In this document: positions 19,699 through 43,539 of the stretch, one piece after another
Position numbering within the stretch: the first letter of the stretch is position 1
Layout of the letters: the number at the start of each line of letters is the position of its first letter
Origin: Candidatus Poribacteria bacterium
Lineage (GTDB): Bacteria; Poribacteria; WGA-4E; WGA-3G
Reading direction: 5' to 3'
Length of the DNA stretch: 64,000 bases
Assembly: GCA_965116815.1 (NCBI GenBank)
Contig: OZ220722.1
Span: forward strand, 2,293,941-2,357,940
Program-made: the position numbers and the translations under genes
The notes under the pieces: model-generated
Database searches by the model: none
Told to the model about the DNA's origin: nothing
What the model saw: the letters and a program-made list of their open reading frames with translations, nothing else

Positions 19699-19874
19699 TA
19701 GCGGAGGTCTGCTGAATTAAGTTTTTTTGACATCGTTCTTTAAATGTGTTATACTTAAAGAGGAAATATAATGCTTTCAGCATGGCCGTGAAACTTACTA
19801 AAACGGCGTGCGTAATTAACATCTAAATAGATTACCCAAAAAAGGCGTTGAAGGGGAGGAGTAAGTCGTCTGGG

Positions 19875-20125
19875 CTTGCGAGAGATGGAGACTCATCGGC
19901 TGAAAGGTCTCCTCAAGTTTCCACGACTGAAGGTCGCCCCGGAGCTGCTCATCTGAACAACTGTAGCAATAAGTAAGGTGAGTCGGTGTGATGCCCGTTA
20001 TCGCATCCCAAAGAGTGCTCTTTCTCGGTAAATGAAAATGAGAAAGGGAATTGGAGTGGTACCACGGTAAGGTCAGTGCAAATGTCCTTCTCGTCTCCAT
20101 GTTTGGAACGAGAAGGTTTTTTAAT
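19875..20125 (+). ncRNA. candidate T-box riboswitch leader (Leu specifier CUC?) with an intrinsic terminator, upstream of ilvB-ilvN-ilvC
   Basis: The boxes occur in the canonical order. AGAGA (AG box) is at about 19881. GCUGA (GNUGA box) is at about 19899. CUCA lies 3' of the distal hairpin at about 19912. CCGUUA (F box) is at about 19995. AAUUGGAGUGGUACCACGG, at about 20049-20067, matches the T-box consensus AAUUAGGGUGGUACCGCGG at 16 of 19 positions. The terminator CCTTCTCGT-loop-ACGAGAAGG + T6 is at about 20086-20122. Confidence 0.5.
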
Positions 20126-20175
20126 TTCAACGACTCCCGTAGGGACGATCCCTACAATTCATGAGGAAAATTGGC

Positions 20176-21852
20176 ATGGAACTTTCAGGAGCGCAAATCC
20201 TTGTTGACAGTCTCAAGCGGGAAGGTGTCGAATATATCTTCGGTGTGAACGGTGGCGCGGCGATGCCGATTTTCGATGCCCTCTACAGTGAGACCGAGGT
20301 TAAATTGATACCGATGCGGCATGAACAAGGGGCTTCCCACGCCGCTGATGGCTACGCACGTGCCACTGGGGATGTCGGCGTTGCGCTCGCAACTTCCGGT
20401 CCCGGCGCAACGAATCTTGTCACTGGCATCGCAACCGCTTATATGGATTCGATTCCGATGGTTGCGATTACTGGACAGGTTTTCACCCATTATATCGGTA
20501 GCGATGCCTTCCAAGAGTGTGATGTTATCGGCGTAACACGTCCGATCTGTAAACATAGTTACCTTATCACAAGTTGCGATGAGGTAGCAGATGTCGTCGC
20601 TGAAGCGTTTCACATCGCGAAGACCGGAAAACCCGGTCCCGTAATTATTGACATTGCCAAAGACGCGCAGATTCACGAAGCACTGTTTCAATATCCAGAA
20701 ACAGTTGACATCCGTAGTTACAAGCCGCAAGTTCATGGTGATCCAGCACAAATTGCAAAGGCAGCAGCACTGATTAAAGAAGCGAAACGCCCCATGCTTT
20801 ATGCCGGTGGTGGTGTTGTACTCGCCAATGCCAGTGAGGAGCTGCGGCAACTCACTCTCAAAACCCAGATTCCGATTACTGTTACATTAATGGGACTCGG
20901 CGCATTTCCCGAAACGCATCCTTTAGCGATGGAAATGCCCGGAATGCACGGTTCTTGTTGCGCTAATTACGCTTTTACCGACGCTGATCTCGTTATCGCT
21001 ATTGGCGCAAGGTTCGATGACCGCGTTACGGGTGATCTCAGTAAATTCGCACCGAACGCGAAGAAAATCCACATCGATATCGACGCGTCCTGTATTGGAA
21101 AAAATGTACCGGTGGATGTTCCGATCGTAGGTGATGCGAAGAGTGTTCTGACAGAACTGAATAAACAGGTTGAGACAGCAGACATTGACCCATGGCGCGA
21201 CCAGATTCAGGAATGGAAGCAGAAGTACCCGTTTGAGTATGAGCAGAAAGCCGATAAGGTAATGCCGCAATATGTCATTGAGCAGATTTATGAGCATTAC
21301 AGCGATGCCATTGTCGTTGCGGATGTCGGACAGCACCAGATGTGGGCGGCACAATACTTCAAATTCACCGAACCGCGGCAGTGGCTCAACTCCGGCGGTC
21401 TCGGCACGATGGGATTCAGCCTCCCCGCCGCAATCGGTGCGCAGCTCGGATGTCCGGACAAAACCGTTGTCAACATCAACGGAGACGGCTCCTATATCAT
21501 GACGATCCAAGAATTGGTGCCAGCGATTACGATGAAACTGCCGATTAAAGTTTTCATCATCAACAACATGTACCTGGGGATGGTGCGCCAGTGGCAGGAA
21601 TTGTTCCACGGCAAACGCTACTCTGCTGTCGATTACCACGATAATCCGGATTTCGCCTTGCTCGCACAGGCATTCGGTGCCACAGGGCTGCGGGTTGAAC
21701 ACCCAGACGAGGTCGAACCCGCATTACAGAAGGCGAAAGGGATTACCGATGGTCCTGTGGTTATTGATTTCATCGTTGATGAAGAGGAGAATGTGTTCCC
21801 AATGGTGCCAGCGGGTGCTGGACTTGGAGATGTTATCCGCGGGCTATCCTAA
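20176..21852 (+). CDS. ilvB: acetolactate synthase large subunit (biosynthetic, TPP/FAD-dependent)
   Basis: Full-length AHAS large subunit (GPGATNLVTGIATAYMDSIPMV, TPP-binding GDGSY...NN). The start is set at MELSGAQ behind a GAGG RBS. The ORF-track ATG at 20161 is an alternative. Confidence 0.92.
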   Translation: MELSGAQILVDSLKREGVEYIFGVNGGAAMPIFDALYSETEVKLIPMRHEQGASHAADGYARATGDVGVALATSGPGATNLVTGIATAYMDSIPMVAITGQVFTHYIGSDAFQECDVIGVTRPICKHSYLITSCDEVADVVAEAFHIAKTGKPGPVIIDIAKDAQIHEALFQYPETVDIRSYKPQVHGDPAQIAKAAALIKEAKRPMLYAGGGVVLANASEELRQLTLKTQIPITVTLMGLGAFPETHPLAMEMPGMHGSCCANYAFTDADLVIAIGARFDDRVTGDLSKFAPNAKKIHIDIDASCIGKNVPVDVPIVGDAKSVLTELNKQVETADIDPWRDQIQEWKQKYPFEYEQKADKVMPQYVIEQIYEHYSDAIVVADVGQHQMWAAQYFKFTEPRQWLNSGGLGTMGFSLPAAIGAQLGCPDKTVVNINGDGSYIMTIQELVPAITMKLPIKVFIINNMYLGMVRQWQELFHGKRYSAVDYHDNPDFALLAQAFGATGLRVEHPDEVEPALQKAKGITDGPVVIDFIVDEEENVFPMVPAGAGLGDVIRGLS

Positions 21853-24060: not shown

Positions 24061-24107
24061 AGTAATGGGAGGCACACAGTGTGTGCCGTTGCGTAAGGAG
24101 GTTAGTC

Positions 24108-25229
24108 GTGGAATTTAGAGGACATCTACTGGACAACACCTTCAAAAGCGTTTACGGGCTTGCCGTCGCCGATATAAACGGAGACGGACAACTTGACATC
24201 ATCGCTGGCTCTACAGGTGAACCGATCATTGCTTGGTATGAGGCCCCTCACTGGAAAAGGCATCTCGTGACTGATCAGGGCAGCGGACATATCACTATTG
24301 CGCCTTATGATCTGACCGATAACGGCACACCTGACCTCATTGTAGGGAGCGGCTTCAATCGTGGGGTAAACGCTGCGGGTGGCTACCTCCACTGGCTTGA
24401 GGCACCGGCGCAAGACGGACAAAACTGGAAGAGCCACCACATCGCCGATGTTCCTTTCATCCACCGCATCGCATTGGCGAATTTCTCTGAAAATACATCA
24501 ATCCCTTTCCTCATCGTCGCTTCAATCCGCGGTGAAGACGGCAAACCCAGTGAATGGCATAGTCCCGGTTCGCTTTGGTGCTATGAACTCTCAGATACCC
24601 CACAAGACACAAATTCTTGGCACTTCCATCTCCTTGACGATTCCCTCCACATCAACCACGGCTTGAGTATCAACGATGTTGACCAAGATGGTCGCGATGA
24701 TGTCTTAATCAGTTGCACAGAAGGATTGATCTGGTATGAACCGCCTGCTAACCCAATGACTGACGACTGGGGTAAGTGGATTATTAGTGACCGTGAGTGT
24801 AGTGATGCATTCGCCGCAGACATTGATGGGGACGGTATCAACGAAATTTTAGGTATTGAGCCGTGGCACGGGAACAATCTCGTCTGGTATAAAGCCACTG
24901 GTGATCTACGTACCGATCCGTGGGAGCGTCACCTCATTGATGATACGCTCAATCGCGGACACTCCCTCGCTGCTGTTGATGTTGATGGCGACGGTGTACT
25001 TGAGATCGTCTGTGGATACAACGGCGAAGGCACAAGCCTTCACCTCTACCGTCCGGAGGATTTGGAACATAACCACTGGCGTAAAGAGACGATTGACGAT
25101 GGTGGTTTGGGTGTTGGACAGATGCATGTCTTAGATATGAACGGAAACGGTAGGTTGGACATCGTCGCGAGCGGTCTCAGTACAGGGAATGTCAAATGGT
25201 ATGAAAACCAATTTTATAATGAATTATAA
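24108..25229 (+). CDS. FG-GAP/VCBS repeat beta-propeller protein
   Basis: Repeated D.NGDG..DI/V...G motifs. GTG start behind an AAGGAGG RBS. Confidence 0.6.
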   Translation: MEFRGHLLDNTFKSVYGLAVADINGDGQLDIIAGSTGEPIIAWYEAPHWKRHLVTDQGSGHITIAPYDLTDNGTPDLIVGSGFNRGVNAAGGYLHWLEAPAQDGQNWKSHHIADVPFIHRIALANFSENTSIPFLIVASIRGEDGKPSEWHSPGSLWCYELSDTPQDTNSWHFHLLDDSLHINHGLSINDVDQDGRDDVLISCTEGLIWYEPPANPMTDDWGKWIISDRECSDAFAADIDGDGINEILGIEPWHGNNLVWYKATGDLRTDPWERHLIDDTLNRGHSLAAVDVDGDGVLEIVCGYNGEGTSLHLYRPEDLEHNHWRKETIDDGGLGVGQMHVLDMNGNGRLDIVASGLSTGNVKWYENQFYNEL

Positions 25230-30999: not shown

Positions 31000-31860
31000 G
31001 TGAAGCAACAAATGTCAAACCAAGGCGTAACCTACAAAACCGACAAAATCATGCCGACGTGGGAACAACTCGCTGAAATGGGGCGCGATCTCCAATTTCA
31101 TCCAAGCACCACGGAGCATCCGAAGGTGCTAACCCAAGAACAGTTGGCTGATTTCAACCGCATCGGTTACATCAAAGGTATCCCGATTTTCGATGAAGCC
31201 GAAATCGGTGAACACCGTCAATATTTTGATGCCCTATTAGCAAACGTCATGGCAGAAGGCGGGAGTAGTTATTCGATTATCTCCGCACATATAAAATACG
31301 GGAAGGTCTATGACCTGCTCACACACCCAAAGATCGTCACCTGTGTGAAAGACCTGATTGGTGAAGACGTTATCGGTTGGGGTGCGCACTACTTCTGCAA
31401 GATGCCCCACGATTCGCAGACCGTCGGTTGGCATCAAGATGCGGGTTACTGGCCCCTCACACCTTCCAAAACCGTTACCGTTTGGCTCGCGATTGACGAC
31501 GCAACTGTTGAAAACGGTGCGATGCGGTTTATTACAGGTTCGCATCATCTTGGACACTTGACACCTCGGCACAGTGAACCCGGCGATAACAGCGTCTTGG
31601 GTCAAGTCGTTGAAGACGCTGAGAAGTACGGTGAACCCGTCGATGTTGAACTCAAAGCGGGTGAAATCTCTATCCACACTGACTTGCTGCTGCACGGTTC
31701 AAACGCCAATCCCTCGCCCAAACGACGGTGCGGGCTGACTTTACGCTACTGCACTACCGATGTCCGGGCATCTTTCCGTTGGGATAAAGAAGGTGTCGTC
31801 GTGAGTGGAGAGGATAGAAATGGGAACTGGGGAAACCCACCACGTCCTGCTGTCGATTAA
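31000..31860 (+). CDS. phytanoyl-CoA dioxygenase (PhyH) family Fe(II)/2-oxoglutarate oxygenase
   Basis: HQDAGYW...WLAIDDATVENGAMRFITGSH...H facial triad pattern. Confidence 0.7.
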   Translation: MKQQMSNQGVTYKTDKIMPTWEQLAEMGRDLQFHPSTTEHPKVLTQEQLADFNRIGYIKGIPIFDEAEIGEHRQYFDALLANVMAEGGSSYSIISAHIKYGKVYDLLTHPKIVTCVKDLIGEDVIGWGAHYFCKMPHDSQTVGWHQDAGYWPLTPSKTVTVWLAIDDATVENGAMRFITGSHHLGHLTPRHSEPGDNSVLGQVVEDAEKYGEPVDVELKAGEISIHTDLLLHGSNANPSPKRRCGLTLRYCTTDVRASFRWDKEGVVVSGEDRNGNWGNPPRPAVD

Positions 31861-31929
31861 TCCAACAGATTGTAGACACCCACAATTGGCGTTTCTTTTT
31901 GTTAAAATTATCAAACGTTTCCGAGTCTA

Positions 31930-33415
31930 AAACCGCCTTGCTTTAGCTGGGGGATACAGACTCGCTCTTGTGAATTAGACCAAAGCGTTTTTTGAAAAAA
32001 ACACTTGACATTTCTACGAAAATATGTTTTAATAGATGTATCACGTTGGCAGACATACCAAGCGTAACCGCAAGGTTACGTGTCTGCCTCCCCACTTGGT
32101 AGGGGTTAAAAGCGTGATACGTGAACATCCATGAAAACCTATAAACTGAAAATCCCTCACACTCAACAGTTAGACGCTCTGAATGCTGCGTCTGCGTCGG
32201 TTTGGAACGAGTGCCTGACTCTCAAATCCGTTTGGGATTATGCGCACGGCTATCGAAGCACCGGACGACTTGATCCACAATGTGAGTTGTGGATGGACAA
32301 GCAACTTTCCAAGTCCCAATCCCTACACTCACAGAGTATCCAAGCTGTCCGTGAGCGGTATTTCAAGAACAGAAAAGCCTATCGTGTGTTACGTAGGAAC
32401 GGCAATTCAACCGCCAAACCGCCGCATAAGTCTAAACGCTTTCAAACAACGACTTGGAAAAAGTCAGCCATCCGTTTCAAAGAAACATTGCTTGGTAAAG
32501 TCTTGATACTCTCTAATGGTAAAGGCACCCCTGCTTTAGAGATACCGCTTCCAAAGTTGTTTAACCTTTCTTTGACCCCTAATATTGTAATTGTGCACCT
32601 TGTCTATACTCGTGGACAATACGAACTTCATTTTGTCTATAACACCGAGACACCTGAAGTCTCTAAGGTTTCCGATGGCGTTGTGGGCGTTGATATTGGC
32701 GAGATACACCCGATTGTCAGCCATGACGGACATAACACACTGATTTTCAATGGGCGGTATATCCGAAGCCTATACCGATTGAGAAACAAGGTGATTGCCT
32801 CCTTTGGTAAAAAGATTGATAGGTGTAAACGCTATTCCAAACGTTGGTGGCATCTCGTGCGTAGGAAGTGGAAACGTCTTCAAAGGATTGACAATCAAAT
32901 CAAGGATGCGCTCCATCAACACACCACAAAGTTTGTGAAAAAATGTGGTGAGTCGGGTATAGGCACGATTGTCATTGGAGACCTAACGGGTATACGAGAC
33001 GATATCAACTATGGCAAACGTGCAAATCAGAAACTTCACCAGTGGGCTTTTGGTAAGGTTGCCGAGTTGATAACCTACAAAGCGAAATCTTTGGGTATCA
33101 AGGTTGACTTGATAGATGAGGCACATACCTCACAGACATGCCCAAAATGTGGCAACCGAAAGAAACCTACAAACCGAAACTACACCTGCAAATGCGGATT
33201 TAACTTTCACCGTGACGGTGTAGGTGCTATAAACATTCGCAAAAAGTATCTTGGACACTTCGGTGTCCCAGTAGTGGCGGACATGGATACCCAGGTTTCC
33301 ATGAAAATGACACCGCCCGTTGGATTTCGTCTCGAAGTCAAACGTTGCTCTGCCTGAGCAGAGAATGTTCCCACGAGGAACAAAAGAATCACCCTTGCTT
33401 TAGCTGGGTGAGTAT
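31930..33415 (+). mobile_element. IS200/IS605-family (IS1341-like) tnpB-only insertion sequence with direct-repeat-type ends
   Basis: The 16-mer CCTTGCTTTAGCTGGG occurs in direct orientation at about 31936 and about 33393, flanking tnpB. The LE carries a long hairpin GGCAGACAT...GTAACCGCAAGGTTAC...TGTCTGCC. The RE has the hairpin CTCTGCCTGAGCAGAG. No tnpA is present. Confidence 0.7.
32131..33357 (+). CDS. tnpB: TnpB (OrfB) RNA-guided endonuclease/transposase-accessory protein, RuvC-like plus Zn finger
   Basis: RuvC motifs VVGVDIGEIHP, IGDLTGIRDD and DEAHTSQTCPKCG, with the Zn finger CPKCGN...CKCG. Confidence 0.85.
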   Translation: MKTYKLKIPHTQQLDALNAASASVWNECLTLKSVWDYAHGYRSTGRLDPQCELWMDKQLSKSQSLHSQSIQAVRERYFKNRKAYRVLRRNGNSTAKPPHKSKRFQTTTWKKSAIRFKETLLGKVLILSNGKGTPALEIPLPKLFNLSLTPNIVIVHLVYTRGQYELHFVYNTETPEVSKVSDGVVGVDIGEIHPIVSHDGHNTLIFNGRYIRSLYRLRNKVIASFGKKIDRCKRYSKRWWHLVRRKWKRLQRIDNQIKDALHQHTTKFVKKCGESGIGTIVIGDLTGIRDDINYGKRANQKLHQWAFGKVAELITYKAKSLGIKVDLIDEAHTSQTCPKCGNRKKPTNRNYTCKCGFNFHRDGVGAINIRKKYLGHFGVPVVADMDTQVSMKMTPPVGFRLEVKRCSA

Positions 33416-33416
33416 G

Positions 33417-34886
33417 TCAATTAACATCAATTCTCATAAACGCCAAGACTGCCGCCATGAATAGGAGGAGTGCGAGCGAGACTAACAACGTTAGATCCAA
33501 CAGTGCGCCTCCGAAGGTGATACCGACAGTTAACTGTTCTGAAAACTTAGGAATGCTATTAAAGGGTACCGGTTTTTGGGATAACCCTTCTTTTACAAGA
33601 TAAACGTGGTAACTGTCGTTGTCTCCTCTATCTTCCGATTTAATAAAGTCGACGAACTGCCGTCTGTAGCGTCGGGCGTGTTGGACGAATCGTTTATGTC
33701 TGGCGAATCCTGTACCTGCCAAAGATTCTACAGCATATTTATAGATAGCCGCCGGAGAGAGTCGCGTAATTTGTTGCGTAAATTCAACCTGTGCGAACTG
33801 TTTATTGAGGTGTTCATCATTGATGCTGCTCTTGGCATCAGCATGTTCGTTTAGATAGTCAGCCCACATCCTTAACACCTCAATTTTAGGTGGCGTGTCG
33901 GAAGGCGAACCTGTTCTGTAAAGTTTGTCTCCTTCTTTGTGCCGAGTATCAATTTCGTCTTCTCTTGCTTTCTGTATGCGAGAAATTTCGCTTCTTGAGG
34001 ACACTTGCTGGAAACCGCTTGCCAATACACCCATAGTGTTCGGGATAAGCACCACAAACACAATCCAAATTAACAGCAACGTCAGCAAACTGCTTGACGA
34101 AGTAGAAAATTGGCTTGAGATAAACAGCCCAAGCCATAAGAATATTGAGATGTAGACAGCGGAAATAACAAAGATTATCCCCATCCGCACCCATTCGCCT
34201 CCGCTAAGCGACACCAATCTTGACGCATTGACGATCATTAAATTCAGTAGTACCGCAATAAACAACGGAATCAGGATCGTGAGAAACGCACCCGTGAATT
34301 TTCCCAGAAGCACGGTCGCGCGGGACACGGAATTAGACATGAGCAAGCTTAACGTGCCTGTTTCACGTTCTCCAGAGATGGCATCGTAAGTGAACAGAAT
34401 CGCCATAAAACTCATTACCAATCCGATGATGAATGTCCAATCCAATTCCGTGAAGTTTGGCAGCGAATCGTTTTTTCGAGATGTATGCTGTGGGTACTGA
34501 AGCCACCAGTTTGCTGACCAAGAGTAGTTGAAACTAAAATCAGGTGTCGTCATACCTATACCATAGCCGCCGCTTGGAGCCCCTTCAACTCGCTTGGGTA
34601 AGTTTGCATCCTCTCCCATTGCAATGAAGGTTAATGGGCTAACCGGTTTGTGTAGATACCCTGGGCCTTTTACTGCAAGTTCACTTAAATTACTGCTTCT
34701 CGTTTTGAGTGAGTCGATGGCTTGGTTGGTATCTTCGGAATATTCCGCGATCCTTCGCGGATATTGACTGCTCACGAATATCACGGCATTCATCACCATC
34801 AACACCATTACCAGAATCAGCGTGAGTGCGAATCGAAAACGCGTCAAATTATCAAGGATTTCTCGTTTTGCTATGTGCCAGATCAT
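33417..34886 (-). CDS. ABC-2-type transporter permease-like membrane protein (large extracytoplasmic loops)
   Basis: N-terminal TM, 4-5 clustered TMs and a C-terminal TM. It is a paralog of the adjacent gene. No ABC ATPase is nearby. Confidence 0.5.
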   Translation of the reverse strand: MIWHIAKREILDNLTRFRFALTLILVMVLMVMNAVIFVSSQYPRRIAEYSEDTNQAIDSLKTRSSNLSELAVKGPGYLHKPVSPLTFIAMGEDANLPKRVEGAPSGGYGIGMTTPDFSFNYSWSANWWLQYPQHTSRKNDSLPNFTELDWTFIIGLVMSFMAILFTYDAISGERETGTLSLLMSNSVSRATVLLGKFTGAFLTILIPLFIAVLLNLMIVNASRLVSLSGGEWVRMGIIFVISAVYISIFLWLGLFISSQFSTSSSSLLTLLLIWIVFVVLIPNTMGVLASGFQQVSSRSEISRIQKAREDEIDTRHKEGDKLYRTGSPSDTPPKIEVLRMWADYLNEHADAKSSINDEHLNKQFAQVEFTQQITRLSPAAIYKYAVESLAGTGFARHKRFVQHARRYRRQFVDFIKSEDRGDNDSYHVYLVKEGLSQKPVPFNSIPKFSEQLTVGITFGGALLDLTLLVSLALLLFMAAVLAFMRIDVN

Positions 34887-34916
34887 GTTGGCTCCTTTGC
34901 AAACCCTGAACCATCA

Positions 34917-36404
34917 TTATACAACGTCGTAGCGTAGGAATGAGATGAATGCGCCCATAAAGAACAGCATGTTTAATACCGCGAGTATCATAATATCGAA
35001 TGACGCGCGTTGCAGACTGTTGCTGATGCCTTCGCTCTGTTCGTTAAATCTCGGAACTCTGCTCAAGTCAAAAGGTGCCTCGAATTCAGTCGTAAACCAT
35101 CTGCGCGAAGAGAATATTTTTTCATCCCTTAGATAGTCGACCCATTCACGACGATATTGTCGGGTCTGTTCCATAAATCGCCAGAAGCTACTCAAATCTG
35201 TTTCCGCAAGAATTGCGGCGGCATTGTAATAAATCGCTGCCGGAGATATACGGGATATGTTCAGTGCTAATAGAGATTGTCGGTTCGGATTTCTGTCGAG
35301 ATACGCTTTGCGTATTTGCCATATTCGATCAGCGTATTGCGTACGGAGATTTTCTTTGAATCCATAACATTCTTGGGCAAAGGGTACACCTTCTTCGTTT
35401 TCAAAGCTGCCCACGTGGACTGTCTCACCACTGTCATAGTCGTTGACACCTGAGCGAGCACCTACACCGCCAAAATTGGCACGATCAAGTGGGCCCTCAA
35501 CCCCTCGTTTTTCAAAATAGTCTTTAACTTCGGCTTCATATTGCTTCCACTGGTCACGTGCCTGCTCTTTATACGGTTCCTCTGACTGTATGGGACTGGC
35601 ATGTTCCACCAATAAAACTGTCAGATTCGGAACAATGAGTACGAAAAGCACCCAGACGCACATTGAGAACATGAGTGTGATAGAAGGTCGGTCGGTTCGA
35701 GTGGAAAGAAAAAGTCCTATCAGGAAAAAGAGCGAAACGTAAAGCATGGATAGCAGAAAGATTAACAGTATCCGTCCCCAGTCCGAACCACTGAAGGAGA
35801 CATAAGCGGAAAATTGTATCACTAACAAGCCTGCGACGAAACTCGCGATAAGCGGAAGCGAAATAGATACCATCCCAGCGACATATTTGCCCAGCAGCAG
35901 CGTTGGTCTCGGAACCGCGCAAGAGAGTGCTAACCTCAAAGTCCCGGCTTCCTTTTCTCGCGATATCGCGTCATAGGAGAAAAGCAGGGCAAGTAGGCTC
36001 ATCACCACTTGGCAGATTACCGTGAAGTCAATAGAAGAAAAAATGTTCAGATACGGATTATCAGAGCCGTGGTGCTCGGCAACGGCAGGAACATATCCGT
36101 GCGCCACCGTCACTGTATTTCCCTTTCTTTTATCTACGCCTTCGTTGAAAATGCTAAGTAGTTTCGGGCTTCTATCACACTTTAACATGTGAGTGAGTCC
36201 GAATTCAGAGTATCTCGTTACCTGACCTATCTTATCTTCATTTTCTCGAATAGCCGTTTGGTAACTTTGCAGCCTATCTTCGTAACCTCTGGTCAAAACG
36301 AAGAGATTTGTCACAATCAGGGAAAAATAGATGAGTAATCCCATGAGGAATCTGAAACTCAAAATATTTGCTGTGATTTCTCTTCTAACAATTGTCCAGA
36401 GCAT
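34917..36404 (-). CDS. ABC-2-type transporter permease-like membrane protein (paralog)
   Basis: Same topology and about 30% identity to 33417-34886. The start is set at MLWTIV behind a GGAGG RBS, 17 nt downstream of the sigma-factor stop. Confidence 0.5.
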   Translation of the reverse strand: MLWTIVRREITANILSFRFLMGLLIYFSLIVTNLFVLTRGYEDRLQSYQTAIRENEDKIGQVTRYSEFGLTHMLKCDRSPKLLSIFNEGVDKRKGNTVTVAHGYVPAVAEHHGSDNPYLNIFSSIDFTVICQVVMSLLALLFSYDAISREKEAGTLRLALSCAVPRPTLLLGKYVAGMVSISLPLIASFVAGLLVIQFSAYVSFSGSDWGRILLIFLLSMLYVSLFFLIGLFLSTRTDRPSITLMFSMCVWVLFVLIVPNLTVLLVEHASPIQSEEPYKEQARDQWKQYEAEVKDYFEKRGVEGPLDRANFGGVGARSGVNDYDSGETVHVGSFENEEGVPFAQECYGFKENLRTQYADRIWQIRKAYLDRNPNRQSLLALNISRISPAAIYYNAAAILAETDLSSFWRFMEQTRQYRREWVDYLRDEKIFSSRRWFTTEFEAPFDLSRVPRFNEQSEGISNSLQRASFDIMILAVLNMLFFMGAFISFLRYDVV

Positions 36405-36423
36405 TACGTTGCCTCCAGTAAAT

Positions 36424-37689
36424 TCAAAAGTTTTCAGTGACGCGCCATGTTTCAATAATCGTTTCGTCAAGATAGGAACTACGCGATTTATATGTGTACG
36501 TAGAACCGATTTGCAAAGGCAGATACTCTTCTGTCTTGCCCGGGGTCCTATATTCCGTTAATTCTATCTCTGTTGTGATGCCGTTGGCATGCTCATAACG
36601 CGTTTTCACAAGCCCAACGCCTTTAGCAAACCACAAATAGCGGACCCCGTTAACAAACGGACTCATCTGTCTGTCACCTGGTTCATAGCGTTTGTCGTTA
36701 GTAATAATAAGCGGGCTGTTCTGTGAGTGAGAATCGATGTCCGTAAGGACACTTTTATGCTTCAGACACGTAGAGAAAACACCGGCGGGAACTTCTACTT
36801 GTTCGTGCCCATCCAAGATTGTCTCCACTTGCGAATTCCAAAATCCTTCCTGCGTCCAAGTATCGCCTACAACTATCGGGAATCTGAGAACGGAAGGCGT
36901 AACAGCCGTTCCGAGCAAGGCTGTTAGCACACACTCAAATCGACTGTCTCCTTCCCAACCGCAATTAAGACTTTTAACTCGCAAAAGTGTATCGTTTCTT
37001 ATTAAGGAGACACTTCCATCTCCTGATTGATTGCCACTTTCGGTAGCGGCATCAAAGCTGACCTTTATATTGCGTTCCATTTTAGCTACCTCACTTAGAG
37101 TTGCGAAAGTTTGAAAATCGTCAGGAGAAGATTGCCCTAAAGATTCGCACTTCTTTAATCGCTGCCGCGCACGACTGAGCCGACTTTTTATCGTATTGGG
37201 AGTTACATCTAAAAAAGCGGCGATATCTTCGCAGGACATTCCATCAAAGTAGTGGAGCGTAACGACGGTGCGTTCACTTTCCCGCAATTTCGCAAGCCAC
37301 TTTTTGATGGTTTCACGAAGTTCTTGCGTTGCCTCTTTTGCTTGCTCTCCCGCAAGGTATCCAGAATACGGATCGCCGTGTCTCATGGCGATATTTATAT
37401 TCTGAGCAAGTTCGGAATTTAGGCGTTTCTCACGAAACCACGCAAGACAACATCGCGTGGCAATGGCGTTAATCCACGCAGAGAATCGATGCGGATCGTT
37501 CAGCGTTTCAAGTTTCTGATGTGCCTTCAGAAAGGTTTCTTGGACGATGTCTTCAGCAATGTGGAAATCCTTGATTGTCCGCCACGCGGTCGCGTGAACC
37601 TGTTTTTGATATTTTTCCACTAACATCGTGAAGGCTGTCTCGTCACCTGCAAGGGCCCGGTGAACCAATGCAACATCATCGTTTCTCAT
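36424..37689 (-). CDS. ECF-type RNA polymerase sigma factor with a ~230-aa C-terminal extension of unknown function
   Basis: Sigma-70 regions 2 and 4 (HRALAGDETAF...DIVQETFLKA...; CEDIAAFLDVTPNTIKSRLSRAR HTH). The start is set at MRNDDVA. A long Ser/Thr-poor globular C-terminal domain follows. Confidence 0.75.
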   Translation of the reverse strand: MRNDDVALVHRALAGDETAFTMLVEKYQKQVHATAWRTIKDFHIAEDIVQETFLKAHQKLETLNDPHRFSAWINAIATRCCLAWFREKRLNSELAQNINIAMRHGDPYSGYLAGEQAKEATQELRETIKKWLAKLRESERTVVTLHYFDGMSCEDIAAFLDVTPNTIKSRLSRARQRLKKCESLGQSSPDDFQTFATLSEVAKMERNIKVSFDAATESGNQSGDGSVSLIRNDTLLRVKSLNCGWEGDSRFECVLTALLGTAVTPSVLRFPIVVGDTWTQEGFWNSQVETILDGHEQVEVPAGVFSTCLKHKSVLTDIDSHSQNSPLIITNDKRYEPGDRQMSPFVNGVRYLWFAKGVGLVKTRYEHANGITTEIELTEYRTPGKTEEYLPLQIGSTYTYKSRSSYLDETIIETWRVTENF

Positions 37690-37953
37690 CAATCTCTCCT
37701 GTCGGTACGGATAAACTTGAATTTCAAATCTCAGCACTCGCCTGATTTGACCAAGTGACGCGAATCGAGTGGGAAAGGTTGCATAATTCTGCAAATTGGC
37801 AGATAGAAATGTTTTATGGAAGGTAGCATCAGCTGCTTCAAAAGAAAAGGTAGTGTTGTGGATGTGAAAGACGGAAACGGGTTCCAAGGCAATCCACCAC
37901 GGGTTAACCCAACACCAAAACATCCACAACAGAGATGGGGAAATATTCTACGT

Positions 37954-38748
37954 TTAAACGGGACCCAGAAATTCCAACTCACGTAACCGATCGATCCAAC
38001 GCTGTCGCCTTTCACTGCCTGCTGGATTGGCAACCCAGTGTGGATCGTAGAGTGAGGTGCCCGGTCGGTTAAAGTGTTCGGGACTCTTGGCGTTGCTTCG
38101 GGCGCGATTGCGTGTGGCGGCATCTTCTTCAGGGGTTTTGGGATTGTTATAGTAGACTATTGTGCACATCCGACGGTCATCATTGCCGCCCCAACTTGCG
38201 TGCCAGCAGCGCATATCGAAAGCAACAACATCACCCGGTTCCGATTTGCAGACGTAACCCGGAACGTCGCAAATCTCCAGGCCCAGTTCATTCAAATTCT
38301 CCCGCAGATCATCATGAAGCGACCGCTTATGAGAACCTGGGATCAATCGCAACGCGCCACTTTCGGCATCGACAGGTTCGAGATAGTATGCGAATTTCAC
38401 GCCGTAGCAGTCTTGGGTTGGATCGGCATTATGATCGGGGTGCCAGCCTGTGTTGCCGACATAACGGTTTGCGTCCGAAACGACGAAAAATACGTCATCG
38501 CCGTAAAGTTGTTCTGCTACTTCTGAGAACCGTGGGTCTTCTGGTAAATTCGCGAAAAATGGCGTTTCGGGTCCCATCATCGGTAGCCAGTGTCGGCGTG
38601 TTCCATCAAATGGTGCGTGGCGATATGCCGCCTCCATTGCCGCTTCAAATTCCTCGTGTATCGTGCTCAGTTCCTCTTGGTTGAACACTTGCCGAAAAAC
38701 GAGAAATCCAAGGGTATGAAAATGCTTGATTTGCTGTTCTGTGAGCAT
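37954..38748 (-). CDS. phytanoyl-CoA dioxygenase (PhyH) family oxygenase
   Basis: WHPD...GALRLIPGSH...WH motif pattern. It is a paralog class of 31000-31860. Confidence 0.7.
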   Translation of the reverse strand: MLTEQQIKHFHTLGFLVFRQVFNQEELSTIHEEFEAAMEAAYRHAPFDGTRRHWLPMMGPETPFFANLPEDPRFSEVAEQLYGDDVFFVVSDANRYVGNTGWHPDHNADPTQDCYGVKFAYYLEPVDAESGALRLIPGSHKRSLHDDLRENLNELGLEICDVPGYVCKSEPGDVVAFDMRCWHASWGGNDDRRMCTIVYYNNPKTPEEDAATRNRARSNAKSPEHFNRPGTSLYDPHWVANPAGSERRQRWIDRLRELEFLGPV

Positions 38749-41384: not shown

Positions 41385-41679
41385 AATTTCTCCGATGTGT
41401 GTTGAAAAGATATATGCTCTATGATACAGACTTCTCTCGGAAATGTCAAGCGGTCTTTTTCTTAGCAAAAATGTCCGAGTTGCAGAAGGCAACGGAAAAA
41501 TGTTATAATCTTTGATGGGAGTCCCTTATATACTTCTCGTATAAATAGCAGTATTTTTTATAGTAAAGCTTCTGGTAATCACGAAGCCTTGTTAACTGGT
41601 GTGGCTGAGAAGTGAGGTTTCCAACCTCGCCAGCGTTGCACTATGCATGATTATACTAACATTTTTTTAGGAGGTTTTC

Positions 41680-42159
41680 ATGAAAACCGATAATAATGGC
41701 AATCAGTTACCGAAGGAGACAAAACTGGCGTACGCGTATTATAAACTGTACCGTGATATGCCGGCAGAGGAACGTTCTTTGCGGGTGCTATGTGAACGCG
41801 AAGTGAACGGTAAAAAAAGATCTATTTCGCTACTTGGGCGTTGGTCGAGTGAACACAATTGGCAAGAGCGAATTGCGGCTTATGACGCTGAAGCTGAGCG
41901 TGCGGCGTATCAAGAAAAATTAGCTCAGCGTCAGGCAGAGGTTGAGGCGTTTATAGACGAAGATATGGCGATCTCCATTAAATTCCAAAAGCTTTGTAAG
42001 ACGCGGCTTGAGGAATTGGACCAAGCCGGAAAGGATATGGATTGTAAAGAGTTGCGTCAATTGGCGTTGACGTATAAAGAATGTCGGGAGTGGCTAAAGA
42101 ACCTGATCGGGATTCTGGGGGAGGTAGAGGACGATGAAGCGGAAACGGCAGAAGATTAA
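41680..42159 (+). CDS. hypothetical protein (charged, helical; mobile-element-associated?)
   Basis: 159-aa ORF with a TATACT-type promoter upstream. Its 3' end overlaps the next ORF. Confidence 0.4.
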   Translation: MKTDNNGNQLPKETKLAYAYYKLYRDMPAEERSLRVLCEREVNGKKRSISLLGRWSSEHNWQERIAAYDAEAERAAYQEKLAQRQAEVEAFIDEDMAISIKFQKLCKTRLEELDQAGKDMDCKELRQLALTYKECREWLKNLIGILGEVEDDEAETAED

Positions 42160-43138
42160 TTTTCATGAGGTACGTTATCCGAAGCAGTTGAAATCAAAGG
42201 TAACTTTGATGTCTCCAGAACGACTTGGGGAATTGTATACAGAATGGGTCGATTTCGTTCGGCAGTTTACCCTGTGTGGTGGCGGCGAATGGTATATTGA
42301 TTTCTGTAATGACGAGTTTCGCGAATGGTTTGATAGTGAGGACTGTTGGTGGTCAAAGAAGGATAATATCCTCGCGTTTCGTCGGTGGTATGAAAAGAAC
42401 AAGGAGGTGTTGACATCTGCAGCATTTCAACACTATAAGGCGGAACAAGAAGCACAGAAAACAGCATTACATAAGCGGTTTTATTCCTTAGATCCTATCA
42501 AATACCATTATGAGGTTTCTCTTGGTTATATCGGTAGATGGTTGACTATTCTTGAGAGATGGTATAAAGAGGAGGCAGCGATATATAAACTGGCGCAGGC
42601 TTTGCTTTTGGAGGTTGCAATCACTGAATGCGTCTTTTTACGAGAGACAACATCTGTGCGGGGGAGTCAGGAATATAAAGAGTGGCTTCTGGTGGATGAG
42701 GCGAATGATCTGTTTCCACAGATGCGCAATAGAGGTCCACTGGACTGGAAATGGCAGGCATTGAAATCGAGTAATGATTGCTATCGGGGTGACATGGAAC
42801 AGGCAGGGTTGATTGTTTCGGTGATGCGCGCCCAGGTCTCCTCTGGAAATCTTGATGAAGAGGTTCTCGGTTTGATAGCGGCGGAGCATGCGCGGTTTTC
42901 ATCAAGTGATCTGGATTTTGAGTATCACCGGTCGTTAGCGATTGCGTCTTGTTTTTCTTCTGATTCTATTACAGTAAATCCATCGAGGTTGTTAGAAGGA
43001 ACAGAAAAATGTTTGCAAGCGTGGAATGTAAGAGATAGGAGCTCTGGATGGGATGCACTTGCGGTTCAAAAACAGGAAGAGTATCGGGCATTTTGGGAAA
43101 GGTGGAAGAACGTTCAAACAGAGCATGAGAATTTATAG
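42134..43138 (+). CDS. hypothetical protein (Trp/Cys-rich N-terminal region; unknown family)
   Basis: 334-aa ORF overlapping the upstream gene by about 26 nt (operon). Confidence 0.4.
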   Translation: MKRKRQKINFHEVRYPKQLKSKVTLMSPERLGELYTEWVDFVRQFTLCGGGEWYIDFCNDEFREWFDSEDCWWSKKDNILAFRRWYEKNKEVLTSAAFQHYKAEQEAQKTALHKRFYSLDPIKYHYEVSLGYIGRWLTILERWYKEEAAIYKLAQALLLEVAITECVFLRETTSVRGSQEYKEWLLVDEANDLFPQMRNRGPLDWKWQALKSSNDCYRGDMEQAGLIVSVMRAQVSSGNLDEEVLGLIAAEHARFSSSDLDFEYHRSLAIASCFSSDSITVNPSRLLEGTEKCLQAWNVRDRSSGWDALAVQKQEEYRAFWERWKNVQTEHENL

Positions 43139-43281
43139 TGTTGAAGGGGCATCAAGGTGCATTAGGTGGACATGTTTGTTGCCCGTTTCGTATGGACTGT
43201 CCAAGTTGTTTCTGTGAATCTTCAGTGTGCCTTTTGTTATTGTATAGGTTACGGAGAGTCCACGGCGTGTGCCTACTACTT

Positions 43282-43539
43282 TTAATAAGGATCCGTGATA
43301 GTCTCATTCACAGTCTCACGCCATGAGTCTTCAAATAGCATACGGAAAGACATTGTTTTGTTGTTGGTTGAAATGATCTCCATCGTGCCGTGTTGTGTAG
43401 CGTTTCGATATAATTTTTCTAACGATTTGATAAGTTTCTGTTTGTAGGTGGTGTCGGTGTTACCTTCGAGGTGTTGTCCTTTGGTCTCGAAACCAACGCC
43501 CTTCGTTTCATATCTGAATAATGATTTCCTCATGGTCAA
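43282..43539 (-). CDS. HicA-like toxin (YcfA family), probable
   Basis: The N-terminus RKSLFRYETKGVGFETKGQHL resembles E. coli HicA KQSEFRRWLESQGV..GSNHL. It overlaps the upstream HicB-like gene. Confidence 0.45.
   Translation of the reverse strand: MTMRKSLFRYETKGVGFETKGQHLEGNTDTTYKQKLIKSLEKLYRNATQHGTMEIISTNNKTMSFRMLFEDSWRETVNETITDPY

What the first reader, a model, noticed from the sequence alone, without database searches (positions are those of the whole stretch)
33417..37689. ECF sigma factor with a fused ~230-aa C-terminal domain, co-transcribed with two paralogous ABC-2-like permeases but no ATPase
The minus-strand gene order is sigma (421 aa; regions 2 and 4 intact, plus an extra globular C-terminal domain), then a 17-nt gap, then permease-like protein 1, then a 30-nt gap, then permease-like protein 2. 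No ABC ATPase or classical anti-sigma gene is present. C-terminally extended ECF sigmas (ECF41/42/56 types) are self-regulated through the extension. The tandem membrane proteins could be an unconventional anti-sigma/sensor pair or an exporter regulated by the sigma. The tnpB element has landed precisely at the 3' end of this unit.
Basis: inference. Interest (0 to 1): 0.5.

Follow-up and report, generated by a model that had tools for sequence, protein, structure and literature searches.

The report
Poribacterial sigma factor with fused barrel
An uncultured sponge-associated bacterium (Poribacteria) encodes a stress-type sigma factor fused to a beta-barrel domain not reported before on sigma factors; it always sits behind its own conserved promoter with two transporter membrane subunits whose ATPase lies elsewhere in the genome, so this is a new variant of a known regulatory design, not a new kind of system.

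Summary
On the minus strand lie an intact 421-aa ECF sigma factor (37689..36424), then two paralogous 6-TM ABC-2/DUF3526 permeases (36404..34917 and 34886..33417). The gaps are 19 nt (not 17) and 30 nt. The fusion is not an artefact: full-length 419-424-aa orthologues occur in about 38 species-level Poribacteria genomes, always followed by the permease pair. The extension (aa ~199-421) is a DUF3108-like/LolA-like beta-barrel, not a SnoaL or TPR domain, so this is not ECF41/42/56. Elsewhere this domain is mostly extracytoplasmic, on M61-PDZ peptidases, BlaR1-like proteins and secreted proteins. Here no TM helix separates it from sigma-4, so it is cytoplasmic. An invariant ECF-type promoter (TGCAACC-N14-CGCGTC, 37783..37757) precedes the sigma gene in all 38 orthologous loci. 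No ABC ATPase lies in the window or within 10 kb of the sigma gene in the Poribacteria loci. However, Poribacteria keep one highly conserved ABC-2 ATPase in a separate ATPase/771-aa/TolC-like operon. Best reading: an autoregulated one-component ECF sigma whose barrel replaces an anti-sigma factor, driving a permease pair powered in trans. The tnpB element (31912..33420) inserted exactly at the permease-2 stop codon. This is a new variant of a known kind, of moderate interest.

The parts
37757..37783 (-). Candidate autoregulated ECF promoter TGCAACC-N14-CGCGTC (AAC-N17-CGT). It lies about 70-95 nt upstream of the sigma start codon.
   Evidence: Both boxes are invariant and the spacer varies in all 38 type-1 orthologous loci. 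The motif is absent from the other 47 loci. In the window it is the only match at 0 mismatches; 0.16 matches are expected by chance at up to 1 mismatch. Promoter activity itself was not tested.
36424..37689 (-). ECF sigma factor with fused C-terminal domain (421 aa, stop codon included).
   Evidence: Full-length orthologues of 419-424 aa share 63-96% identity.
37423..37623 (-). Sigma region 2 (aa 23-89).
   Evidence: PF04542, E 1.5e-14. Closest solved sigma factors are SigW, AlgU and RpoE.
37150..37302 (-). Sigma region 4 (aa 130-180).
   Evidence: PF08281, E 6.9e-15, and PF04545, E 1.4e-11.
36427..37095 (-). C-terminal DUF3108-like/LolA-like beta-barrel domain (aa ~199-421). It is cytoplasmic because no TM segment precedes it.
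34917..36404 (-). ABC-2/DUF3526 permease subunit 1 (495 aa, 6 TM helices, N-terminus inside).
33417..34886 (-). ABC-2/DUF3526 permease subunit 2 (489 aa, 6 TM helices, N-terminus inside). Its last codon and stop codon are supplied by the tnpB element junction.
31912..33420 (+). Inserted tnpB-only IS200/IS605-type element (1509 bp; tnpB ORF 32131..33357). It is not part of the unit but abuts it.
   Evidence: NF040570 scores 196.8 bits against a cutoff of 100. The empty site in L007 joins window positions 31911 and 33421.

Best explanation
This is a Poribacteria-specific, self-contained ECF sigma module. The sigma factor (regions 2 and 4) is fused, through a linker of about 15 residues and with no membrane segment, to a cytoplasmic DUF3108-like/LolA-like beta-barrel. 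The barrel takes the place of a separate anti-sigma factor. Inferred: the barrel holds sigma-4 in an inactive state, or is needed to activate it, until it binds a ligand, most likely a hydrophobic one, or a partner protein. This would parallel the way other C-terminal extensions control ECF41/ECF42-type sigmas. Shown by conservation but not by experiment: the active sigma reads its own promoter (TGCAACC-N14-CGCGTC) and so induces itself and the two co-transcribed ABC-2/DUF3526 permease subunits. Inferred: the two permeases form a heterodimeric type-V (ABC-2) exporter core with two large periplasmic loops. Having no ATPase gene of their own, they are energised in trans by the single, highly conserved ABC-2 ATPase. 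Poribacteria encode that ATPase elsewhere, in an operon with a ~770-aa protein and a TolC-like outer-membrane protein.
For: Fusion and conservation: full-length orthologues are found. Identity to the window protein averages 82% in sigma-2, 81% in sigma-4 and 65% in the barrel.

No TM helix or signal peptide is present.

Domain identity.

Synteny: every type-1 locus with more than 1 kb of downstream sequence carries the permease pair on the same strand.

Promoter: the two boxes are invariant and the spacer varies in 38 of 38 orthologous loci. The motif is absent from paralogous loci and occurs once in the window.

Short gaps with Shine-Dalgarno sites indicate co-transcription.

ATPase: none is found in the window or within 10 kb of the sigma/domain gene in 84 Poribacteria loci, apart from one unrelated hit in L052.

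Distant permease relatives sit in arrays that include an ABC-2 ATPase gene.

Poribacteria have a matching ATPase that is 83-95% conserved. It lies in an ATPase/771-aa/OEP operon beside other permease pairs. One such operon is in the same MAG that carries the type-1 operon.

The most conserved part of the permease family is the cytoplasmic TM2-TM3 loop, YDAIxxExExGTL. In canonical ABC-2 permeases this loop contacts the ATPase (the structural role is established knowledge of ABC-2 transporters).

In a metagenomic relative (L099), a plain ECF sigma with a classical HxxxCxxC anti-sigma precedes four such permease genes. The permeases therefore behave as sigma-controlled outputs in that locus.

Regulation through C-terminal extensions is established for other ECF groups (PMC7826278, PMC8999054).
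Against: No experiment and no reliable inter-domain model exists. The full-length AF2 model has pTM 0.46, so contact between the barrel and sigma-2/sigma-4 is not shown.

In most other proteins the same barrel subfamily is extracytoplasmic, being found behind signal peptides, in lipoproteins, after a TM helix, or C-terminal to BlaR1-like proteins. A cytoplasmic ligand-sensing role is therefore an extrapolation.

The window protein itself is below the Pfam cutoff for PF21347.

Use of the ATPase in trans is inferred from gene content only.

The sigma promoter motif is not found at the ATPase operon.

Insertion sequences lie between sigma and permease 1 in several relatives. This means co-transcription is not strictly required, or those copies are decaying.
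Confidence: 0.55

Rival explanations
1. The permease pair is the sensor and anti-sigma factor. The fused barrel docks on the cytoplasmic coupling surface of the ATPase-less ABC-2 heterodimer, so the sigma is held at the membrane. A signal sensed by the large periplasmic loops, or engagement of the shared ATPase, releases it. This would be a transporter-derived anti-sigma, analogous in logic to MalK-MalT or BceAB-BceS.
For: Linkage of the sigma-barrel gene with the pair is strict. No ATPase is encoded in cis. No classical anti-sigma gene is present. Barrel-containing genes recur next to such pairs in paralogous clusters. The conserved cytoplasmic loop implies some cytoplasmic partner.
Against: The permeases expose only about 18 aa at the N-terminus plus loops of about 28 aa and 7-17 aa to the cytoplasm, and they have no anti-sigma domain. 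The other barrel proteins encoded next to such pairs carry signal peptides or TM anchors, so any barrel-permease contact in those cases would be periplasmic. A matching ATPase exists in the genome. In L099 the same kind of pair is accompanied by a classical anti-sigma.
Confidence: 0.12
2. The sigma is activated by proteolysis. The barrel is a recognition handle shared with the cytoplasmic barrel-M61 peptidase-PDZ proteins of the same genomes. Those peptidases cut the short linker and free the sigma core. The 421-aa protein would be a trimmed descendant of the ~990-aa sigma-barrel-M61-PDZ paralogues.
For: The closest relatives of the barrel are almost all attached to M61 peptidase and PDZ domains. 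Sigma-barrel-M61-PDZ proteins with the same short linker and no TM helix exist, as do neighbouring barrel-M61-PDZ proteins without a signal peptide. Proteolytic activation is one of three known modes for extended ECFs (PMC8999054).
Against: No peptidase gene lies in any type-1 locus. There is no evidence that barrels pair with each other. The barrel of type-1 proteins is well conserved over its whole length, not only at a cleavage site.
Confidence: 0.15
3. The two membrane proteins work without any ATPase, as a scaffold, a secondary carrier or a periplasmic-enzyme platform. They are ABC-2 permeases by ancestry only.
For: None of about 80 poribacterial pairs has an adjacent ATPase. The pairs sit next to varied secreted proteins: proteases with PDZ domains, lectin-like proteins and DUF3108-like proteins.
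Against: The ATPase-coupling loop is the best conserved part of the family. A cognate ATPase is retained at 83-95% identity across Poribacteria and lies beside other pairs. Distant relatives are ordinary ATPase-linked arrays.
Confidence: 0.1
4. The long sigma ORF is an assembly or frameshift artefact that joins two genes.
For: None found.
Against: The same single ORF of 419-424 aa occurs in about 115 protein clusters. It is seen in dozens of independent MAGs, including closed chromosomes.
Confidence: 0.01

Closest known systems
ECF41 / ECF56 / ECF294 / ECF295 (SnoaL-like extension) and ECF42 (TPR extension) sigma factors
   Same: An ECF core plus a cytoplasmic C-terminal domain of 100-200+ aa. 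No anti-sigma gene is present, and the extension is presumed to control activity in cis (PMC7826278, PMC8999054).
   Different: The extension here is an all-beta DUF3108-like/LolA-like barrel, not SnoaL or TPR. The conserved neighbour is an ABC-2 permease pair. The phylum is Poribacteria, which is not mentioned in the main text of the 2021 classification.
Sigma-E / RseA / RseB / DegS envelope-stress pathway
   Same: An ECF sigma whose control involves a LolA-like lipid-binding protein (RseB) and a PDZ protease (DegS); this is established knowledge. The poribacterial paralogues sigma-TM-barrel-M61-PDZ put analogous parts on one chain.
   Different: In the window protein there is no membrane tether and no protease, and the barrel is cytoplasmic. 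There is no sequence homology to RseB.
SigY (ECF31) operon sigY-yxlCDEFG of Bacillus subtilis
   Same: An autoregulated ECF sigma co-transcribed with an ABC-2-type transporter (own knowledge; ECF31 regulators are described in PMC7826278).
   Different: SigY has separate anti-sigma proteins (YxlC/YxlD) and its own ATPase (YxlF). Here the regulator is fused and the ATPase is encoded elsewhere.
ABC-2 (type V) exporters such as NosFY and Wzm/Wzt
   Same: PF12679 six-helix permease topology. The conserved ExxGT loop follows TM2, and the N-terminal helix is cytoplasmic.
   Different: Two paralogous subunits, each with a DUF3526 insert of about 190 aa between TM5 and TM6. The ATPase gene is unlinked and apparently shared among many pairs.
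ECF52 / ECF53 / IutY-type sigma-anti-sigma fusions with a TM helix
   Same: The sigma and its sensor are on one polypeptide. Poribacterial type-3 paralogues (for example P0134 and L052 9020-12343) have this layout.
   Different: The window protein has no TM helix.
4fvs (BDI_3050 lipoprotein, Parabacteroides distasonis) and DUF3108/YmcC-fold and LolA-superfamily proteins
   Different: Those proteins are secreted lipoproteins of unknown or lipid-carrier function. None is fused to a sigma factor.

Membership tests
ECF (group 4) sigma-70 family | Only regions 2 and 4 are present, and the protein scores above family thresholds. | tested here: met
   PF04542 53.9 bits, PF08281 54.9 bits and TIGR02937 99.4 bits (cutoff 42.9). 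The closest solved proteins are SigW, AlgU and RpoE.
ECF (group 4) sigma-70 family | A cognate promoter with AAC in the -35 element and CGT in the -10 element, upstream of its own gene. | tested here: met
   TGCAACC-N14-CGCGTC lies at 37783..37757 and is invariant in 38 orthologous loci. Transcription from it was not tested.
ECF41 / ECF56 / ECF294 / ECF295 | A SnoaL-like C-terminal extension. | tested here: not met
   No SnoaL Pfam hit at E<=0.1. The extension is all-beta and belongs to PF21347.
ECF42 | A TPR-rich C-terminal extension. | tested here: not met
   No TPR hit. The model has no helical repeat.
Any numbered ECF group (ECF Hub classification) | A score against the group-specific HMMs of Casas-Pastor et al. 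2021. | not testable with these tools
   The ECF Hub models are not available here. The main text of PMC7826278 does not mention Poribacteria, DUF3526 or ABC2.
Sigma-anti-sigma fusions with a membrane anchor (ECF52/53, IutY-like) | A TM helix between sigma-4 and the sensor domain. | tested here: not met
   No 19-residue window has mean hydropathy above 1.5. Paralogues with a TM helix exist.
DUF3108-like (PF21347) / LolA-like barrels | A sequence match to PF21347 above its gathering score. | tested here: inconclusive
   The window domain scores 18.2 bits against a cutoff of 27. Thirteen of 18 aligned relatives match, best E 1.5e-07; P0121 scores 40.4 bits.
DUF3108-like (PF21347) / LolA-like barrels | An open antiparallel beta-barrel fold resembling LolA or YmcC. 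| tested here: inconclusive
ABC-2 (type V) ABC transporter | A six-helix PF12679 permease. | tested here: met
   100.5 and 114.7 bits against a cutoff of 27.2, with six hydrophobic segments each.
ABC-2 (type V) ABC transporter | A cognate ATP-binding subunit encoded with the permease. | tested here: not met
   The ABC ATPase HMM finds none in the window. In 84 Poribacteria loci it finds only the unrelated L052 ORF. A candidate acting in trans exists.
ABC-2 (type V) ABC transporter | Physical and functional coupling to an ATPase. | not testable with these tools
   This needs biochemistry or a complex prediction.
TnpB / IS200-IS605 element (neighbour) | An RNA-guided TnpB nuclease ORF and insertion without target duplication. 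| tested here: met
   NF040570 scores 196.8 bits against a cutoff of 100. The junctions against the empty site in L007 show no duplication. No tnpA gene lies in the element.

The most novel reading that the evidence does not exclude
The ATPase-less ABC-2 permease pair is itself the anti-sigma factor. The cytoplasmic beta-barrel on the sigma occupies the surface of the pair that would normally bind the shared ATPase. Transport demand, through competition with the ATPase or a substrate-driven conformational change, would then release the sigma. This would be flux sensing wired directly to an ECF sigma. A milder variant is that the cytoplasmic barrel is a copy of the periplasmic carrier protein and senses the same hydrophobic cargo inside the cell.
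Probability: 0.12. Interest if true: 0.75.

Novelty: new variant of a known kind. Interest (0 to 1): 0.5.

Why it matters
ECF sigma factors with fused regulatory domains are valued as compact, orthogonal switches, and only a few extension types (SnoaL, TPR, Cys-rich, ZAS-TM) are understood. This locus adds an apparently undescribed type, a DUF3108/LolA-like barrel.

It belongs to a lineage-specific series in Poribacteria: sigma-barrel, sigma-barrel-M61-PDZ and sigma-TM-barrel-M61-PDZ. That series could show how an extracytoplasmic sensor module becomes a cytoplasmic one.

It also reveals a modular transporter layout. Many permease pairs are each encoded with their own regulator or secreted partner, while one conserved ATPase/TolC-like operon sits elsewhere. 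This bears on how these uncultured sponge symbionts manage their envelope.

The conserved promoter gives a directly testable sigma/promoter pair for heterologous work.

Tried and rejected
1. My first ATPase screen required a Walker A motif plus an LSGGQ-like signature. It was too strict and missed ATPases with an FSKGM signature. I replaced it with an HMM built from 22 ATPase ORFs. The conclusion for Poribacteria loci held, but the claim that the whole family lacks ATPases was dropped.

2. The full-length AF2 model (pLDDT 64, pTM 0.46) was too poor to judge contacts between the barrel and the sigma core. Its fold search mostly returned sigma factors.

3. The PDB sequence search with the single domain found nothing. 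Only the profile search reached 4fvs.

4. The afdb50 fold library was unavailable.

5. Rfam found nothing in or near the unit, and no tandem repeats were found.

6. Sigma-70 promoter and terminator scans in 33200-38100 gave promoter-like sites at the chance level; terminator-like sites (9 against 4.6 +/- 2.4 in shuffles) were somewhat more frequent than in shuffles and were not pursued.

7. A second promoter-like site at 24691-24717 (1 mismatch) lies antisense inside an FG-GAP gene, so I set it aside.

8. The sigma promoter motif is not present at the ATPase operon.

9. Literature searches gave nothing relevant: DUF3526 returned 0 papers; 'ECF + LolA-like' returned 0; 'Poribacteria + sigma factor' returned none that looked relevant by title or abstract (none was opened).

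10. ECF41/42/56 membership was considered and rejected on domain content.

Full report
**Observation**

The minus strand of 33417-37689 carries three tightly packed genes.
- The first is a 421-aa protein (37689..36424, ATG start preceded by AGGAGA). Pfam finds sigma-70 region 2 at aa 23-89 and region 4 at aa 130-180. It scores 99.4 bits against the ECF superfamily model TIGR02937, whose cutoff is 42.9.
- After a further 30 nt comes a 489-aa protein (34886..33417).

Both membrane proteins match PF12679 ABC2_membrane_2 well above threshold and also match PF12040 DUF3526. They are paralogues, 29% identical with E 4e-52.

Hydropathy gives each of them six helices with the N-terminus inside. Each has two large outward-facing loops: about 90-110 aa between TM1 and TM2, and about 185-200 aa (the DUF3526 part) between TM5 and TM6. 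Only very short stretches face the cytoplasm. The sigma protein has no hydrophobic segment at all.

**Is the fusion real?**

Yes. A search of 5.8 billion proteins returned about 115 full-length cluster representatives of 419-424 aa at 63-96% identity. Those that carry a source name are all from Candidatus Poribacteria.

A scan of one genome per species found 177 relatives of the C-terminal domain. The best 80 were all from Poribacteria MAGs, several of them closed chromosomes. The window is about 96% identical, over the C-terminal domain at the protein level, to OX638352.1.

In an alignment of 47 orthologues, both the sigma core and the extension are conserved. Mean identity to the window protein is 82% for region 2, 81% for region 4 and 65% for the extension. 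A frameshift or assembly artefact is excluded.

**What is the extension?**

The single sequence has no Pfam hit above threshold and no PDB sequence match. A full HMMER scan of 1.84 billion representative proteins found 229 relatives.

These relatives put the domain in PF21347 (DUF3108-like). Thirteen of 18 aligned members match, best E 1.5e-07, and P0121 scores 40.4 bits. The window copy scores only 18.2 bits against a cutoff of 27.

A domain model built on that alignment (pLDDT 75.6, pTM 0.75) is an all-beta meander of about 12 strands.
- Foldseek's best PDB hits are LolA3 of Porphyromonas gingivalis, a DUF1329 protein and LolA-superfamily proteins, but the TM-scores are low, about 0.35.
- A sequence profile reaches 4fvs at E 0.009.

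I therefore call it a DUF3108-like, LolA-like barrel. The family assignment is fairly secure and the fold comparison is only moderate. It is not SnoaL or TPR, so the protein is not of the ECF41/42/56 kind.

**Where else does this barrel occur?**

The closest relatives are mostly extracytoplasmic.
- Lipoproteins or signal-peptide proteins of about 1000 aa carry one or two barrels followed by an M61 peptidase and a PDZ domain.
- BlaR1/M56 membrane proteins carry the barrel at the C-terminus.
- Proteins with an N-terminal TM anchor carry it.
- More distant secreted DUF3108-like proteins of about 290 aa carry it.

In Poribacteria the barrel is also fused to ECF sigmas in three layouts.
- Type 1: sigma-barrel, about 420 aa. 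This window belongs here.
- Type 2: sigma-barrel-M61-PDZ, about 990 aa, with the same short linker and no TM helix.
- Type 3: sigma-TM-barrel-M61-PDZ, about 970-1100 aa.

Types 1 and 2 therefore place a normally periplasmic module in the cytoplasm.

The 2021 ECF classification and a 2022 review list SnoaL, TPR, Cys-rich, ZAS-TM, DUF1835 and multi-TM extensions. In the passages I searched (term searches, not a full reading), I found no extension like this one; Poribacteria returned no match in the main text of the 2021 classification, the only one of the two papers I searched for that term. Text searches for DUF3526 and for ECF plus LolA-like found nothing.

**Conserved unit and promoter**

I annotated 84 loci with HMMs for the sigma core, the barrel and the permease. 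Every type-1 locus with more than 1 kb of downstream sequence has the permease pair next, on the same strand.

In several relatives, insertions of 0.5-1.9 kb separate sigma from permease 1, or split permease 1. One of them, in L001, is a DDE transposase.

The usual sigma-permease 1 spacer is about 77 nt. The window has lost about 58 nt of it.

Upstream of the sigma gene, the only conserved block apart from the ribosome-binding site is TGCAACC-N14-CGCGTC. The two boxes are invariant and the spacer is variable.
- The exact pattern occurs in all 38 type-1 loci that have upstream sequence, and in none of the other 47 loci.
- In the 64-kb window it occurs once at 0 mismatches, at 37783..37757. At up to 1 mismatch the chance expectation is 0.16.

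AAC-N17-CGT is the classic ECF promoter layout. This is the hallmark of an autoregulated ECF operon, although activity was not tested.

**The missing ATPase**

My first motif screen was too strict. It missed ATPases whose signature reads FSKGM.

An HMM built from 22 ATPase ORFs then showed two things.
- The distant permease relatives (27-35% identity) from non-poribacterial metagenomes lie in arrays of up to eight permease genes. These arrays include an ABC-2 ATPase gene.
- The window and the 84 Poribacteria loci contain none. The single hit, in L052, is not next to any permease.

Poribacteria nevertheless own a matching ATPase, 83-95% identical across genomes. It lies in an operon ATPase (243 aa) / 771-aa protein / TolC-like OEP, beside other permease pairs. 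One MAG, GCA_964593655.1, carries both this operon and the type-1 sigma operon on different contigs.

Across 128 distinct permease sequences, the best conserved stretch is the cytoplasmic TM2-TM3 loop YDAIxxExExGTL. In ABC-2 transporters this loop is where the ATPase docks (established knowledge). The simplest reading is that one ATPase serves many permease pairs in trans.

**Mechanism**

Shown:
- a real, conserved fusion;
- a cytoplasmic location for the barrel;
- strict linkage with the permease pair;
- a conserved ECF-type promoter;
- no ATPase in cis, but one in trans.

Inferred:
- the barrel replaces an anti-sigma factor and gates the sigma in response to a ligand or partner;
- the sigma induces itself and the pair;
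- the pair is an exporter core powered by the shared ATPase.

Support for treating the permeases as outputs comes from a metagenomic relative, L099. There a plain ECF sigma and a classical HxxxCxxC, single-TM anti-sigma precede four such permease genes.

I put this model at 0.55. The rivals are these.
- The pair itself sequesters the sigma through the barrel (0.12). This is weakened by the tiny cytoplasmic surface of the permeases, by the periplasmic location of other barrel proteins encoded next to such pairs, and by the existence of the ATPase.
- The sigma is activated by proteolysis through the cytoplasmic barrel-M61-PDZ paralogues (0.15).
- The pair functions without any ATPase (0.10).
- The ORF is an artefact (0.01).

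**Neighbouring tnpB element**

Comparison with the empty site in L007 shows a 1509-bp insertion at 31912..33420, with no target duplication. It carries only tnpB (NF040570, 196.8 bits). Its right end changes the last permease 2 codon from AAA to AAT and supplies a new TGA stop codon.

**Verdict**

The finding is real and correctly described. This is an ECF sigma with a new kind of fused extension, within a Poribacteria-specific expansion. It is coupled to permease pairs whose ATPase is shared and unlinked. That makes it a new variant of a known kind. The interest is moderate, and is higher if the barrel proves to link the sigma physically to the transporter.

Noticed in passing
window 31912-33420: A tnpB-only IS200/IS605-type element of 1509 bp lies between permease 2 and a PhyH gene. 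It shows no target duplication. It replaces the last permease 2 codon (AAA to AAT) and provides a new TGA stop. A 16-nt direct repeat, CCTTGCTTTAGCTGGG, lies near both ends (about 31937 and 33393). No tnpA gene is present.
   Followed up: yes
window 36405-36423; L001, L007, L008, L010, L017, L030, L032, L039: The sigma-permease 1 spacer is about 77 nt in relatives. It is a repeated target of 0.5-1.9-kb insertions, including a DDE transposase in L001. Permease 1 is split in L007 and L017. The window instead has a deletion of about 58 nt that leaves 19 nt.
   Followed up: partly
L006 8001-13419; L043-L083; L052 9020-12343; P0128, P0134: Poribacteria carry paralogous giant ECF sigmas. One kind is sigma-barrel-M61 peptidase-PDZ (about 990 aa, no TM helix), usually followed by a barrel-M61-PDZ gene without a signal peptide. 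The other is sigma-TM-barrel-M61-PDZ (about 970-1100 aa). The latter puts analogues of RpoE, RseA, RseB and DegS on one chain.
   Followed up: partly
L166 10001-14712; L167 16427-21176 (minus strand); L108; L111: A conserved poribacterial operon encodes an ABC-2 ATPase (243 aa), an unannotated ~771-aa protein and a TolC-like OEP. It lies beside permease pairs. In L167 a plain 204-aa ECF sigma follows it. It is probably the shared engine and outer-membrane exit for the many ATPase-less permease pairs.
   Followed up: partly
L147, L150, L151, L137, L125 (metagenome loci): Outside Poribacteria the same ABC2_membrane_2+DUF3526 family forms tandem arrays of 4-8 permease genes with only one to three ATPase genes. 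Fewer ATPase genes than permease pairs are seen in these arrays, which would fit sharing of an ATPase among pairs outside Poribacteria as well.
   Followed up: partly
L104 4753-6150; L099 3016-5691; L085 321-1952: Other regulators or partners sit in front of such permease pairs. L104 has a 465-aa ECF sigma with a different, unannotated C-terminal extension. L099 has an ECF sigma, a ZAS-type anti-sigma and a secreted 441-aa protein. L085 has an HtrA-like Trypsin_2-PDZ protease.
   Followed up: partly
window 24691-24717 (minus strand): This is a one-mismatch copy of the sigma promoter motif (TGCAACTGATTAAGACATCATCGCGAC). Exact copies exist at the matching place in L007, L026 and L028. It lies antisense inside an FG-GAP beta-propeller gene (24081..25229, plus strand), so it is probably not a promoter.
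   Followed up: partly
window 19839-20101 (plus strand): A T-box leader (Rfam RF00230, 112.8 bits) lies upstream of a TPP-enzyme gene (20161..21852), probably the acetolactate synthase large subunit. It is followed by ORFs which, going by the syntenic genes in locus L002, are probably an ACT-domain small subunit and a KARI gene. T-box control of an ilv operon in Poribacteria may be worth a look.
   Followed up: no
window 41500-43500: GC skew is strongly positive (+0.18 to +0.32) over two plus-strand ORFs (41680..42159 and 42134..43138) that have no Pfam match. A stretch of about 1.6 kb with no ORF of 150 aa or more follows.
   Followed up: no
window 37954-38748 (minus strand) and 31000-31860 (plus strand): Two PhyH-family dioxygenase genes flank the unit. 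This arrangement is conserved in some relatives (L002) but not in all (L001), so they are probably not part of the unit.
   Followed up: partly
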